From: a virus
Taxonomy: Duplodnaviria; Caudoviricetes
Strand: one strand, 5' to 3'
Virus record (IMG/VR): IMGVR_UViG_3300048575_000434
Coordinates: 1-37,931 of that record
DNA: 37,931 nt
Part shown: piece after piece, positions 10,141 to 13,501 of the stretch
Numbering within the stretch: the stretch's first letter is position 1
Layout: each line of letters opens with the position of its first letter
Translations under genes and position numbers: made by a program
The notes under the pieces: model-generated
Seen by the model: only the letters and a program-made list of their open reading frames with translations
The model's database searches: none
Told to the model about the DNA's origin: nothing

Positions 10141-10643
10141 TGGAAGGCCCTCCCGAACAGGGCTTCCAAACAAAGAACCCGCCCGCCTCTGGTGGCGGCT
10201 GCACGGCTCTGCTGCAATGCCCCCCAGGAGGAAACCAATGGCCGAAACCGTACTGATCGAACGAATAGTCGAACGCGCTGTGTCTGCGCGCCTTGCCCCG
10301 CTGGAGCACCAACTGTGGGCGCAGCACTGCCTGTTGACCGAGCTGGTGCGCCAGCTCCCGCGCCACGCAGTGGTGGACGCTGCGCGGCGCCTGCACCAGC
10401 TGAACATTGCCGAGGAACCGCCGCGAAAGGTGGCGTTGCTGGAGGCATGCACTGGCTGGCAGGCGTACCTCGGGCAGCTCGCAGGCTTTGTAGAAGGAGA
10501 TACGCCTCCGCCACTTCACCCAGGGCGGCCAGTGCCTCCACGCCCGCCGTCGATATGTTGACTTGGGCCAAGTATTCGCGCCATGGATCGGCGATGCGAA
10601 ACAGCGGTGCGCCAGTAAGATGCATGCTGGACATACCGCTCAT
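10137..10643 (-). CDS. Hypothetical protein (168 aa) coupled between ner and the CII-like gene
   Basis: ATGA overlaps at both ends (10640-10643 and 10137-10140). Confidence 0.4.
   Translation of the reverse strand: MSGMSSMHLTGAPLFRIADPWREYLAQVNISTAGVEALAALGEVAEAYLLLQSLRAARGTPASQCMPPATPPFAAVPRQCSAGAGAAQRPPLRGAGAGAPARSTGSAAPTVGAPAGQGAQTQRVRLFVRSVRFRPLVSSWGALQQSRAAATRGGRVLCLEALFGRAFQ
10238..10561 (+). CDS. Counter-oriented hypothetical protein (107 aa)
   Basis: AGGAGG Shine-Dalgarno 6 nt before ATG 10238; amphipathic helical sequence with Pro-rich tail. Confidence 0.6.
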   Translation: MAETVLIERIVERAVSARLAPLEHQLWAQHCLLTELVRQLPRHAVVDAARRLHQLNIAEEPPRKVALLEACTGWQAYLGQLAGFVEGDTPPPLHPGRPVPPRPPSIC

Positions 10644-10885
10644 GCCGCGCGCAGTTGCATGTGGGGCGCGGTGCCACGCGATACCGTGCCGGCCTTCAGA
10701 CCCAGTTCCACGGCGATGTTGTGGCTCTCGCCACGCAGGCACTTGCGATGGGGGGCACGGTCGTCGTCGTTGACGATCATGCAGACCAGCGCGGCCGAAT
10801 AGCCGCGCTGCTTGGCCCAGTCGGAGTACGACCAGCCACGGCTGGCGAACTCGTCGCGGACCTGCTTGCGGGTTTTAAGGGGCAT
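10640..10885 (-). CDS. Ner-like DNA-binding protein (BcepMu gp16-like)
   Basis: KTRKQVRDEFASRGWSYSDWAKQRGYS...RGESHNIAVELGLK; divergent from the repressor. Confidence 0.85.
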   Translation of the reverse strand: MPLKTRKQVRDEFASRGWSYSDWAKQRGYSAALVCMIVNDDDRAPHRKCLRGESHNIAVELGLKAGTVSRGTAPHMQLRAA

Positions 10886-10952: not shown

Positions 10953-10981
10953 ATTATTTCTCCACTTGGCGAATTCGTCAA
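10953..10981 (-). promoter_or_regulatory. Early (lytic) sigma70 promoter
   Basis: Minus strand TTGACG (10976-10981), 17-nt spacer, AATAAT (10953-10958). Confidence 0.75.
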
Positions 10982-11012: not shown

Positions 11013-11444
11013 ATGCCTAGAAAACCGGAGCTATCCCAAGAAGATCAGGCAAGCAGAGAGAGGCTTGGCGCGGCGATACGCATCGCGGCAGCGACCCGGA
11101 ACATGAAACCTGCTGATCTCGCTAAGGCAGGTGGGGTGAGCCTCGCCCACCAATACAGGATCGAGAGCGGCGAGAGAACTCCTGACGCCCTCTATCTCAT
11201 GAAGATCGCGCGACTGCTTGGGGTGTCCCTTGACGAGTTGTGCTGGGGGAAGTCAGACCAAGAGTTGGTGCCTGGCGGCCCAAAAGAGGTGCCTCAAAGT
11301 GCAGCAGGTGTGGGAGGGATACACGCCGATCACGTCAGTGGCGGATTCAACATCGGGTCGGTGCATGGCGGGAGCGTCACACAGGGTGCTGTTACCAACA
11401 CCGGCTCCGTCACTTTTCATCCACCGAAGACCCGTCGTAAATGA
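11013..11444 (+). CDS. XRE-family HTH prophage repressor with Gly/Val/Asn-rich C-terminal tail
   Basis: MKPADLAKAGGVSLAHQYRIESGERTPDALYLMKIARLLGVSLDEL; divergent from ner; no peptidase S24 domain visible. Confidence 0.88.
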   Translation: MPRKPELSQEDQASRERLGAAIRIAAATRNMKPADLAKAGGVSLAHQYRIESGERTPDALYLMKIARLLGVSLDELCWGKSDQELVPGGPKEVPQSAAGVGGIHADHVSGGFNIGSVHGGSVTQGAVTNTGSVTFHPPKTRRK

Positions 11445-11460
11445 GGAACTGGAGACAGTG

Positions 11461-11976
11461 ATGCACATCGACTATGCCCATGGTCAAGTGGCACAGACCA
11501 TTCACAACTACGGGGATGTCTACCTCGATGGCAGCCCCGCTGAGTCCAGCAAGAAAAACCGGTTTCTTGCATTGGCAAAGGAAAAAATGCCCGACTCCTG
11601 TCACCACCAACTGGAGTGGATCGTGAACCATTCAGACGTGCACGGCGAGTGCTTGTTGCTGGCGTGCGATGCCAAGGCGCTGGTTTGTAAGGATGGCCGT
11701 CTTGCGCAGGCGTTGGCCTTGCCTGCATACGCCTTCGGGGGGCTGTGCATTGCCATACTTTTTGCTTTTAGCGCCCTTTGCACCTGGATTTGGATGTCGT
11801 TACATCAAAACTTATCGATGGCCAGCGAGGGGATTCTTTTCGCCTTCATTTCGGCAGGCGCTTTGACCATCTATTGGTTACAGCGACGCTACTTTTATTC
11901 GCATCTAGTCGCTCAGCGGGTAGTGACTGCTCTTGCTCGCCCAAGACGCGGGGCCAGGCGTGGCAAGCGCGCATAG
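11461..11976 (+). CDS. Two-TM membrane protein with N-terminal beta-rich motif
   Basis: GGAG Shine-Dalgarno before ATG 11461; two hydrophobic segments near the C-terminus; basic tail. Confidence 0.7.
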   Translation: MHIDYAHGQVAQTIHNYGDVYLDGSPAESSKKNRFLALAKEKMPDSCHHQLEWIVNHSDVHGECLLLACDAKALVCKDGRLAQALALPAYAFGGLCIAILFAFSALCTWIWMSLHQNLSMASEGILFAFISAGALTIYWLQRRYFYSHLVAQRVVTALARPRRGARRGKRA

Positions 11977-12032: not shown

Positions 12033-12389
12033 ATGGAGCCCATATTCGGGTTTTTGCTTTTCGGGGTTGCAAGCGTGATCGCGTCAATCGTTGCTCGCAA
12101 GCGCGGTAGATCCGGCCTGCTGGTGTTTGGGTTCTGCTTGATCGCCGGCTTCGTTCTCGTCGTCGTCACCAACAACGCTGGCGGAGGCGCTGTCGGCGCG
12201 GGATTCGCTGCCTTTGCCGCCCCAATAGCAGCCTTGGTCTGGGCCACGTCTACCCGCAGTAGCGAACAGTTGGCCGTATCAACTGGGGAGCATGGCGATT
12301 TCAAGAAGTGCCCGTTTTGCGCGGAGTCTGTGCGCAAAGAGGCCGTGAAATGCAAGCACTGCGGTAGCACTCTGGACAGCGCTGGCTGA
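12033..12389 (+). CDS. Membrane protein with C-terminal zinc ribbon
   Basis: AGGAG Shine-Dalgarno; three hydrophobic segments with ARKRGRS loop; KKCPFCAESVRKEAVKCKHCGS. Confidence 0.85.
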   Translation: MEPIFGFLLFGVASVIASIVARKRGRSGLLVFGFCLIAGFVLVVVTNNAGGGAVGAGFAAFAAPIAALVWATSTRSSEQLAVSTGEHGDFKKCPFCAESVRKEAVKCKHCGSTLDSAG

Positions 12390-12397
12390 GACATGGC

Positions 12398-12718
12398 GTG
12401 ACCGTACGCCACGCCCTTGCCCAGTCGGCTATGGCCCTGTGCCTGGTGTCGCTTGCTACGGACGCCGACGCCCGGATCCCCCGCTCCAGCGCAGCAGTGG
12501 CCGAGTTCAAGCGCCAGAACCCATGCCCCATCAACAGCGCCAGGCGCGGCCCCTGCCCAGGGTATGAGGTGGACCACATCGAGCCCCTGTGTGCTGGTGG
12601 GCCAGACGTGCCGGTCAACATGCAGTGGCTCACACGCCAGGCGCACAGGGAGAAGACGCGGCGGGATGTAATGCGTTGCAGGCGAATGAAGATTTCACAG
12701 ACCGACAACTACTCATAA
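12398..12718 (+). CDS. Small HNH endonuclease-fold protein with predicted signal peptide
   Basis: CPGYEVDHIEPLCAGGPDVPVNMQWLTRQAHREKT; N-terminal hydrophobic stretch ending in ADA. Confidence 0.8.
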   Translation: MTVRHALAQSAMALCLVSLATDADARIPRSSAAVAEFKRQNPCPINSARRGPCPGYEVDHIEPLCAGGPDVPVNMQWLTRQAHREKTRRDVMRCRRMKISQTDNYS

Positions 12719-12733
12719 CGAAAGGGGATTGAG

Positions 12734-12928
12734 ATGACAGACAAGAAAACACCGCCGCCGCCACCGCCGCCACCACCGCCGCCACCACCGCCACCACCGC
12801 CGCCACCACCACCGCCACGAAGTACATCCACGGCAACGGGTACCGCAAACTTTCGTGAGGCCAAAGGCAGCGACAACGCTGTCTATTTTTCCCCGCCGCC
12901 GCCACCACCTCCGCGTCCGCCAAAGTGA
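12734..12928 (+). CDS. Poly-proline peptide (64 aa; runs of 22 and 7 Pro)
   Basis: AAAGGGGA Shine-Dalgarno; the repeat varies only at the third codon position (CCG/CCA). Confidence 0.7.
   Translation: MTDKKTPPPPPPPPPPPPPPPPPPPPPPRSTSTATGTANFREAKGSDNAVYFSPPPPPPPRPPK
12752..12817 (+). repeat. (CCR)22 trinucleotide repeat
   Basis: 66 nt of CCG/CCA codons read directly from the sequence. Confidence 0.95.
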
Positions 12929-12970
12929 CAGCAATGGCGCAAAGTCGCTATGCGGTGCCACAATCCGGCC

Positions 12971-13501
12971 ATGACGACCGATGCCACACTGACGGAAGAG
13001 GACCGGCGCCTTGACGCGCTTTGGGCTCAGCGTTGCGCCGTGCTGCGCAATGCCTGGGTTCAGGTGCGCTACCACCGGCGGCGCCAGCGGTTTTTCGACC
13101 TGGTGGACAAGGGGACCAAGGCGATCACCGTGGTGCTCGGGGCTTCGCTAATGGGCAAGTTCTTTGTCGATCAATTCCCTTGGTTCGCTGGCGGCATCAC
13201 CTCGCTTGGTTTGTTGGCACTGGTGTTCGGCTATGGCGACCGAAAACAATTGCATAAGGAACTGGCCGAACAGGCCGCAGCATTGGCGGCCTCCATCGAG
13301 CAGGTGCCCGTGAGGGATTTGTCGGTGGACAAGACGGCGGCATGGGCTGCTGACTACGTGCGCATATGCGCCAAGGCGCCGCCCCCGCTCAAAACCCTCA
13401 GCCTGATCTGCGAAAGCGAGCAGTCGGCCGCTGATGGCCATCCCGGCCATGTAAGCATGCCGCACTGGCTACGGCGCGCTGTGGCTGACTTCAAAAGCTG
13501 A
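12971..13501 (+). CDS. SLATT-like two-TM effector protein
   Basis: VRYHRRRQRFFD, two short TM helices, then H..LA helical tail; start ATG 12971 (alternative 12950). Confidence 0.6.
   Translation: MTTDATLTEEDRRLDALWAQRCAVLRNAWVQVRYHRRRQRFFDLVDKGTKAITVVLGASLMGKFFVDQFPWFAGGITSLGLLALVFGYGDRKQLHKELAEQAAALAASIEQVPVRDLSVDKTAAWAADYVRICAKAPPPLKTLSLICESEQSAADGHPGHVSMPHWLRRAVADFKS

What the first reader, a model, noticed from the sequence alone, without database searches (positions are those of the whole stretch)
11316..11526. Matching amyloid-like motifs on the repressor C-terminus and the adjacent membrane protein N-terminus: candidate prophage signalling system
Seen: the repressor lacks a self-cleaving S24 domain and ends in a G/V/N/Q/H/S/T-rich tail. 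Its segment FNIGSVHGGSVTQGAVTNTGSVTF (11346-11417) aligns by eye with the first 22 residues of the next protein, MHIDYAHG-QVAQ-TIHNYGDVYL (11461-11526): 8 identities (I,H,G,V,Q,N,G,V) with alternating hydrophobic positions kept. A partial extra repeat (IHADHVSG) precedes it. A 6-codon ORF (11441-11461) overlaps the repressor stop and the partner's start. Known: RHIM, HET-s and bacterial amyloid signalling motifs are short Gly/Asn/Gln beta-arch sequences shared between the N-terminus of a receptor and the C-terminus of an effector encoded next door. Inference: the two-TM protein is an envelope sensor whose motif templates or co-assembles with the repressor tail, giving RecA-independent control of induction or immunity. 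I know of no description of this for a phage repressor.
Basis: partly seen in the sequence, partly recalled or inferred. Interest (0 to 1): 0.85.

Follow-up and report, generated by a model that had tools for sequence, protein, structure and literature searches.

The report
Paired peptide tags on phage repressor
The predicted repressor of this Mu-like phage ends in a short glycine/asparagine-rich peptide that is mirrored at the start of the predicted membrane protein encoded next door, and the two peptides change in step across related phages, so the membrane protein likely grips the repressor through them and would switch the dormant phage by an amyloid-like assembly step.

Summary
Sequences, 8 identities and the 6-codon ORF check out. 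Alone, the window pair is weak in an unbiased search (p=0.23, rank 39 of 82). A profile built only from partner proteins ranks this tail 2nd of 82 (0 of 2000 shuffles). Across 82 related repressors, 43 have such a tail. The next gene's start matches its own tail best in 17 of 43 and in the top three in 25 of 43, against 1 and 5 of 39 others. No permutation of 200,000 approached the observed score. The match is held at protein level, under purifying selection, and does not follow HTH similarity. Partner bodies vary: two-helix membrane, Flk/ORF6C-like, or tiny. Lab phages B3 and BcepMu carry the pair; Fc02 lacks it, so it is accessory. Binding and amyloid formation are untested. 'Envelope sensor' is doubtful: the periplasmic loop is about 11 residues. 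It is not a member of the BASS/NLR or Bab/Agp systems but is built like them. Ten literature searches showed no description. This scan noted the same pairing earlier on other DNA (7 AI notes, not independent evidence).

The parts
10640..10885 (-). Ner-like early regulator (BcepMu gp16 family), divergent from the repressor
   Evidence: TIGR04111 76.2 bits over cut-off 34; phrog_925
10953..10981 (-). Sigma-70-like site pointing at ner (candidate early promoter; consensus match only)
   Evidence: 1 found, 0.8 expected in shuffles, so weak
11013..11444 (+). Predicted immunity repressor: Cro/CI-type HTH, linker, G/V/N/Q/H/S/T-rich tail, basic end; no S24 hit
   Evidence: PF01381 E=7.9e-10, residues 29-76; same position as the genetically proven repc of Fc02
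11319..11342 (+). Partial extra repeat ahead of the tail motif
   Evidence: sequence; residues 102-135 are kept 30/34 and 25/34 in P0002/P0003 against 10/22 for the linker
11346..11417 (+). Repressor tail motif (class shared with L095, L089, L117)
   Evidence: 22/24 and 19/24 identical in the two closest homologues
11441..11461 (+). 6-codon ORF bridging the repressor stop and the partner start; possible translational coupling, not conserved as such
11461..11976 (+). Partner: disordered N-terminal motif, small cytoplasmic helical/beta-hairpin domain, predicted two-helix membrane hairpin, basic C-terminus; family without Pfam, PHROG, NCBIfam or PADLOC hit
   Evidence: 219 clusters at 50% identity with E<=0.001; AF2 model mean pLDDT 77.6, residues 1-26 below 50
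11461..11526 (+). Partner N-terminal motif
   Evidence: 19/22 identical in P0036 against 38/62 and 31/76 for the body
11719..11880 (+). Predicted membrane hairpin (about residues 87-140) with a short loop

Best explanation
The repressor tail and the partner's first residues are a matched pair of peptide motifs that likely bind each other by stacking as like-on-like beta-arches, so that the predicted inner-membrane partner would hold the repressor and, when it clusters, likely pull it into an assembly that lifts repression. Shown: the motifs are matched, co-vary, are under selection, and sit on interchangeable partner bodies in one operon-like block. Inferred: direct binding (about 0.8), a cross-beta or amyloid-type stack rather than a small finite sheet (about 0.55 given binding), and loss rather than gain of repression as the output (about 0.5 given binding). 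The trigger is unknown. It is more likely membrane state or a cytoplasmic or membrane protein contact than a periplasmic ligand. The module is an accessory add-on to the standard ner/repressor switch.
For: Pairwise match: own partner is best in 17 of 43 and top-3 in 25 of 43 motif-tailed repressors, against 1 and 5 of 39 others. Within the 43, the summed score is 2092 against a maximum of 1507 in 200,000 permutations; 37 of 43 beat tail shuffles at p<0.05. The match does not follow HTH similarity: own partner beats the nearest HTH neighbour's partner in 41 of 43; tail-tail vs partner-partner similarity rho=0.44, against 0.08 and 0.07 for HTH. It is held at protein level: 182 of 420 identical residues share a codon, against 169.6 expected from codon usage. 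Selection in 9 close pairs: pN/pS 0.14 (tail motif) and 0.23 (partner motif); motifs stay 13/14 and 15/15 identical while the HTH falls to 29/62 (L072/L073). The window's partner body recurs with several other motif classes (alignment; window hit E=1.6e-7 with a profile built without it). 74 of 141 family N-termini match some repressor tail, against 0 for a mid-protein control and 7 for shuffles. A fused HTH-motif-helical-domain form exists (L118; phage Gregale 62% identical), echoing the all-in-one vs two-gene architectures described for fungal NLRs (Dyrka preprint passage). A phi-Q-phi-G core is in both partners in 17 of 43 pairs; the RHIM/PP/BASS3 signature is G-phi-Q-phi-G. The window tail contains IGSV, the stretch assigned as beta-strand with a glycine kink in Bab fibrils; four residues is only a hint.
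Against: No experimental data. The window pair alone is not significant in a free search (p=0.23, rank 39 of 82). The full G-phi-Q-phi-G signature is absent from the window pair and present in both partners in only 3 of 43; 18 motif segments gave no RHIM or other amyloid Pfam hit at E<=5. The partner motif's pN/pS (0.23) is barely below that of its body (0.26). Membrane anchoring is not enriched over the control: helix in 19 of 43 partners vs 20 of 39 longest downstream ORFs of other loci; amphipathic start in 11 more vs 6; 13 of 43 have neither by my cut-offs. Two tails (L020, Komp_PAO1_1) have no matching partner in the fetched DNA. About half the repressors lack the module, among them Fc02, which lysogenises and confers immunity. 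Tail and partner start are neighbours on the DNA and travel as a block, so the 43 pairs are fewer than 43 independent events. Nothing here fixes the sign of the output.
Confidence: 0.45

Rival explanations
1. Constitutive co-repressor or stabiliser: the partner binds the tail and strengthens or prolongs repression, through higher-order oligomers or shielding of the tail from proteolysis, without a switch-like step.
For: Partner starts abut the repressor stop in 31 of 43 loci, which suggests coupled, stoichiometric synthesis in the lysogen. In Fc02 the gene after repc is co-transcribed in the lysogen. Fused forms make the partner-type domain a permanent part of the repressor. Mu repressor is thought to be controlled through a hidden C-terminal ClpX signal (passage in PMC10584840).
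Against: It does not explain why partner bodies are so varied or often membrane-bound, and tail-less repressors work without it.
Confidence: 0.2
2. Repressor-guarded toxin or abortive-infection trap: the partner is a membrane effector kept quiet by the repressor tail and released when the repressor is lost or attacked.
For: At score >=45 a motif-bearing downstream protein occurs in 24 of 43 tailed loci and 3 of 39 others, and those 3 (L034, L059, L062) carry motif-like tails missed by my composition cut-off. Partners were thus not seen without a tail at that cut-off, while tails occur without partners. Two-helix proteins with short loops are common defence effectors (general knowledge, recalled).
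Against: Many partners are small or lack a membrane helix (54-76 aa in L007, L010, L048, L050, L053). No PADLOC hit for the five partners scanned. The polarity is the reverse of Bab/Agp, where the killer carries the C-terminal motif.
Confidence: 0.15
3. Decoy or mimicry: both motifs bind a third protein (host protease adaptor or a phage anti-repressor), and the partner titrates it without touching the repressor.
For: Matching sequences would arise equally if both faced the same binder. Motifs outlast HTH specificity in close pairs.
Against: The motif switches between clearly different classes in both proteins together among close HTH relatives, which a conserved host binder would not follow.
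Confidence: 0.13
4. Relic without function: a fused HTH-motif-domain gene split, or a short tandem duplication left similar ends.
For: Fused forms exist; the segments are adjacent on the DNA; the window pair itself is well diverged.
Against: Codon identity at matched residues is near the level expected from codon usage, motifs are under purifying selection, and unrelated partner bodies carry the matching motif.
Confidence: 0.05

Closest known systems
Bab/Agp (BASS11) amyloid antiphage system of E. coli (bioRxiv 10.1101/2024.11.07.622273; parts 1-2 of 8 and term passages read)
   Same: Adjacent genes in a prophage; a motif of about 25 residues, Gly-punctuated, at the C-terminus of one protein and the N-terminus of the next.
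   Different: There the C-terminal carrier is a Bell cell-death domain and the partner a 1094-aa TPR-GreA/B-PIN protein. Here they are an HTH at the repressor position and a small membrane or Flk-like protein. Amyloid is proven there and untested here. The main text has no 'repressor', 'HTH' or 'helix-turn-helix'.
BASS1-10 Bell/NLR pairs and fungal HET-S/NWD2, RHIM (bioRxiv 10.1101/2020.01.06.895854; passages read)
   Same: Pairwise-matched motifs in several classes, same polarity, two-gene and all-in-one forms; a RHIM-like phi-Q-phi-G core in both partners of 17 of 43 related pairs.
   Different: No NLR and no Bell/HeLo domain. Hosts there are multicellular bacteria; the named hosts here are Burkholderiales and Pseudomonas. 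The window pair lacks the G-phi-Q-phi-G signature. That text has no 'phage', 'HTH' or 'repressor'.
B3-like / BcepMu-like immunity region (Fc02 repc-ner; PMC9936078 passages)
   Same: Divergent ner and HTH repressor, with a downstream accessory gene in the same direction. B3 ORF18/ORF20 and BcepMu gp17/gp18 carry the matched motifs.
   Different: Fc02's repressor has no tail and its next gene no motif. The passages read do not mention a tail or a motif-bearing partner.
Mu repressor C-terminal ClpX signal (passage in PMC10584840)
   Same: A transposable-phage repressor thought to be controlled through its C-terminal tail without self-cleavage.
   Different: The signal is read by a host protease; no matched phage-encoded partner is mentioned in that passage.
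Flk (Fluke) of Salmonella (PMC13344023 passages) and ORF6C domain
   Same: [quoted passage not shown] One partner (L077) hits the Flk model at E=2.9e-14 over residues 31-148, and the commonest soluble partner domain links to it (E=8e-5 and 2e-4 among 44 proteins).
   Different: The hit is far under the family cut-off (53 vs 353 bits); ORF6C hits only the fused form, at 19.5 bits against 22. The window's own partner is of another family. Flk acts on flagellar export.

Membership tests
Amyloid signalling gene pairs (BASS, Bab/Agp, HET-S/NWD2) | Short shared motif at the C-terminus of one protein and the N-terminus of the product of the adjacent gene | tested here: met
   (weak for the window pair alone, strong by profile and across relatives)
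Amyloid signalling gene pairs (BASS, Bab/Agp, HET-S/NWD2) | Motifs matched within a pair more than between pairs | tested here: met
   2092 vs maximum 1507 in 200,000 permutations; 41 of 43 beat the nearest HTH neighbour
Amyloid signalling gene pairs (BASS, Bab/Agp, HET-S/NWD2) | N-terminal motif carried by an NLR or TGP receptor | tested here: not met
   partner is 171 aa with no family hit; none of 39 partners scanned has such a Pfam domain
Amyloid signalling gene pairs (BASS, Bab/Agp, HET-S/NWD2) | C-terminal motif carried by a cell-death or immune effector (Bell, HeLo, TIR, CHAT) | tested here: not met
   carrier is a Cro/CI-type HTH
Amyloid signalling gene pairs (BASS, Bab/Agp, HET-S/NWD2) | Motifs form cross-beta fibrils and cross-seed | not testable with these tools
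   needs peptides, ThT, EM or NMR
RHIM / PP / BASS3 motif | G-phi-Q-phi-G core | tested here: not met
   absent in the window pair; in both partners in 3 of 43 related pairs, shorter phi-Q-phi-G in 17 of 43; no Pfam RHIM hit in 18 segments
BASS11 motif | Match to the BASS11 consensus | not tested
   the consensus is in an extended-data figure that is not held; only a four-residue stretch could be compared
B3/BcepMu-like transposable phage immunity region | Divergent ner-like gene and HTH repressor upstream of an rve transposase and AAA ATPase | tested here: met
B3/BcepMu-like transposable phage immunity region | The HTH protein represses lytic genes and confers immunity | not testable with these tools
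   inferred from position; proven for the syntenic Fc02 gene
Flk / ORF6C | Profile match over the curated cut-off | tested here: not met
   window partner has no hit; L077 partner 53 vs 353 bits; fused form 19.5 vs 22 bits

The most novel reading that the evidence does not exclude
A prion-like lysogeny switch. A membrane-tethered phage protein nucleates amyloid assembly of the immunity repressor through matched motifs, giving an all-or-none, possibly heritable, SOS-independent route out of lysogeny. Because motif classes outlast DNA-binding specificity, one phage's partner could also act on repressors of co-resident or incoming phages of other immunity groups.
Probability: 0.27. Interest if true: 0.93.

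Novelty: new variant of a known kind. Interest (0 to 1): 0.76.

Why it matters
How transposable phages whose repressors do not self-cleave leave lysogeny is still unclear; for Mu the precise mechanism is called unknown in the passage read. About half of the 82 sampled repressors of this group carry a matched motif pair, including the classic laboratory phage B3 of P. aeruginosa PAO1, where the partner is an unannotated gene and tail-less relatives (Fc02) give a natural control. If the motifs assemble like amyloid-signalling motifs, this would extend that mechanism from cell death to transcriptional control and tie the lysis-lysogeny decision to the membrane. Even a non-amyloid contact would be a repressor co-factor not found in the papers searched.

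Tried and rejected
Complex prediction of 4 repressor tails plus 1 partner start (alignments A4, A5): no answer, score 0.00, controls not folded; no evidence either way. Single-sequence scans of viral contigs with either protein found nothing; tblastn of the repressor against cultured phages found nothing. Fold searches gave only generic helical matches: window partner best Z 8.5 over the helical hairpin only, with its cytoplasmic domain barely tested, and Foldseek had no hit at E<=0.001; the soluble partner domain had best Z 7.1, rmsd 2.1, 58 aligned and no viral hit at E<=0.001. The AF2 models leave the motifs disordered, as expected for single chains. The tail profile against PDB sequences gave no relevant match. 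The Atlas gave only unnamed clusters for the window partner and Flk_N/ORF6C leads under 0.9 for L057. Programmed frameshift fusing repressor and partner was considered because the partner frame is open 242 nt upstream of the repressor stop, and rejected as a general feature: only 5 of 43 loci have >=150 nt open. A conserved role for the mini-ORF was rejected. Membrane anchoring as an enriched trait was not supported against the control. A tail-only profile from 12 other loci ranks the window repressor 1st and partner 2nd among 340 window ORFs, but at only 7.8 and 4.5 bits. PMC3564109 passages held nothing on the B3 repressor tail. The look-up of related places in this scan was blank.

Full report
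Setting. The window is a 37.9-kb virus record of a B3/BcepMu-like transposable phage. It has an rve transposase and an AAA ATPase. The transposase matches 69 cultured phage records, mostly B3-like Pseudomonas phages. A Ner-like gene (TIGR04111, 76.2 bits, cut-off 34) diverges from an HTH gene at 11013-11444. The gene at this position in the B3-like phage Fc02 is the genetically proven immunity repressor, and its downstream neighbour is co-transcribed in the lysogen (PMC9936078, passages). The window's HTH protein is therefore a predicted repressor.

The observation. The sequences, coordinates, 8 identities, extra repeat and 6-codon ORF are as stated. Only HTH families hit the repressor. A free local search gives p=0.23 and rank 39 of 82. 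Two further tests support the pair. First, the tail closest to the window tail and the partner start closest to the window partner start both come from one other locus, L095, whose partner body is of a different type. Second, a profile of 15 N-termini from the partner family, made with no repressor input, ranks the window tail second of 82 after L095 (its two close homologues also score high), and 0 of 2000 shuffles reach its score. Both motifs are conserved above their flanks: tail motif 22/24 and 19/24 against linker 10/22; partner motif 19/22 against 38/62 and 31/76.

Data set. Loci came from scans with the repressor alignment, scans with the Ner alignment (the best 80 of 563 viral matches; 30 loci from 26 of 301 genomes) and 12 cultured-phage regions that I chose. 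Of 147 sequences, 106 gave a Ner/repressor pair and 41 did not. Six loci with a repressor but no recognised Ner were added, 7 with too little downstream DNA were dropped, and 105 were collapsed at 70% identity to 82. A composition rule called 43 tails motif-like. It includes one false call (L116) and misses L026, L034, L059 and L062 (tail similarity >=40) and, by eye, L020; three more 'other' tails also reach 40 without an evident motif. The counts were left uncorrected.

Co-variation. The own downstream ORF scores best in 17 of 43 and in the top three in 25 of 43 motif tails, against 1 and 5 of 39 others. Within the 43, the summed own-partner score is 2092; the best of 200,000 permutations is 1507; 37 of 43 beat shuffles of their tail. 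The own partner beats that of the nearest HTH relative in 41 of 43. Tail similarity tracks partner-start similarity (rho 0.44) and hardly tracks HTH similarity (0.08). Several motif classes occur, each matched within its pair. At matched identical residues 182 of 420 codons are the same, against 169.6 expected from codon usage, so this is not a recent DNA duplication. In 9 close pairs pN/pS is 0.14 for tail motifs and 0.23 for partner motifs (0.27 for HTH, 0.26 for partner bodies), and motifs can stay intact while the HTH halves in identity. Caveat: tail and partner start are neighbours on the DNA and move as a block, so the number of independent events is below 43; I did not count them on a tree.

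Partners. The bodies differ. The window's family (small cytoplasmic domain plus two helices) has 219 clusters at 50% identity. Of 141 full-length members, 123 show two hydrophobic helices with a median loop of 11 residues and more K/R outside the loop, so the motif is predicted cytoplasmic and there is no periplasmic domain. 74 of 141 N-termini match a repressor tail, against 0 for a mid-protein control. This one body carries several motif classes. Other partners have a three-helix domain (AF2 pLDDT above 90 over residues 61-119) that links to a Flk-like region, often behind an amphipathic first helix. Others are tiny. Fused HTH-motif-domain proteins occur (L118; phage Gregale), and two loci have two motif-bearing partners. 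Cultured phages B3, Ps59 and BcepMu carry the pair; Fc02, JBD67, PM105 and phiCTX repressors have no such tail; Komp_PAO1_1 has a tail without a partner in the fetched DNA. Membrane anchoring is common but not enriched over other genes at this position.

Mechanism. Shown: a matched, selected, class-switching motif pair on a predicted repressor and its neighbour. Inferred: direct like-on-like binding, because matching across classes and across unrelated partner bodies is hard to explain otherwise. Inferred more weakly: a cross-beta stack, from Gly-punctuated alternating composition, the polarity and two-gene/fused architectures shared with amyloid-signalling pairs, and a phi-Q-phi-G core in 17 of 43 pairs. 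I commit to a tether-and-release-of-repression model at 0.45. Co-repressor (0.2), repressor-guarded toxin (0.15), decoy for a third protein (0.13) and relic (0.05) are the rivals. The missing S24 domain is a trait of most of these repressors, tailed or not (by eye).

Known and new. The pair is built like BASS and Bab/Agp pairs but fails their defining carrier domains, and amyloid formation is untested, so it is not filed as a member. Literature searches (listings only unless stated) showed no report of such a motif pair on a phage repressor. Term searches in the main texts found no 'HTH' or 'repressor' in the Bab/Agp preprint, the BASS preprint or PMC12261475 (term counts only). The library lacks most subscription papers, including the original B3 and BcepMu genome papers as far as the listings show. 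I saw no supplements or extended-data figures; the BASS11 domain lists there could include HTH cases. Seven earlier AI notes of this scan describe the same pairing in other genomes. I recorded my reading before seeing them; they agree but are not independent evidence.

Verdict. A real, widespread and apparently undescribed repressor-partner module, directly testable in phage B3. Interest 0.76; new variant of a known kind, and close to categorically new if the prion-like switch (probability about 0.27) holds.

Noticed in passing
window 12734-12928 (+) and 12950-13501 (+): A 64-aa poly-proline ORF precedes a hydrophobic gene homologous to BcepMu gp19 (30% identity, E=7e-18). BcepMu also has a small Pro-rich ORF just upstream of gp19, so this looks like a conserved two-gene unit of unknown function.
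   Followed up: partly
window 10238-10561 (+): A 107-aa ORF on the repressor strand inside the early region, with no family hit. Its position resembles the Fc02 olg1/olg2 exclusion genes; homology was not tested.
   Followed up: no
window 12033-12389 (+) and 12398-12718 (+): A membrane-like protein with a zinc ribbon and a small HNH-like protein follow the partner in the same direction: moron or defence-like cargo.
   Followed up: no
window 11218-11976 (+): The partner's frame is open 242 nt upstream of the repressor stop; only 5 of 43 related loci have 150 nt or more.
   Followed up: yes
L118:2060-2905 (+); phage Gregale OR683403.1 449-1243: Fused HTH-motif-helical-domain repressor; weak ORF6C hit (19.5 bits). 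phrog_17822 covers both this architecture's halves, and L043 encodes the C-terminal half as a separate partner.
   Followed up: partly
L077:1326-1961 (-), L079: Partners resemble the N-terminal region of the flagellar regulator Flk (E=2.9e-14, under cut-off) and end in a hydrophobic tail by eye. This hints at a shared origin of Flk and phage accessory proteins.
   Followed up: partly
L034 and L110: Two successive downstream genes each start with the motif matching the repressor tail.
   Followed up: partly
L072/L073, L041/L042, L049/L063: HTH identity falls to about 50% while the repressor motifs stay 13/14, 13/13 and 15/16 identical: motif class outlasts likely immunity specificity, allowing cross-talk between phages.
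   Followed up: partly
L010, L048, L050, L053: Partners of only 62-76 aa: a helix-like start, the motif, then a Cys-rich end; a possible metal or redox element.
   Followed up: no
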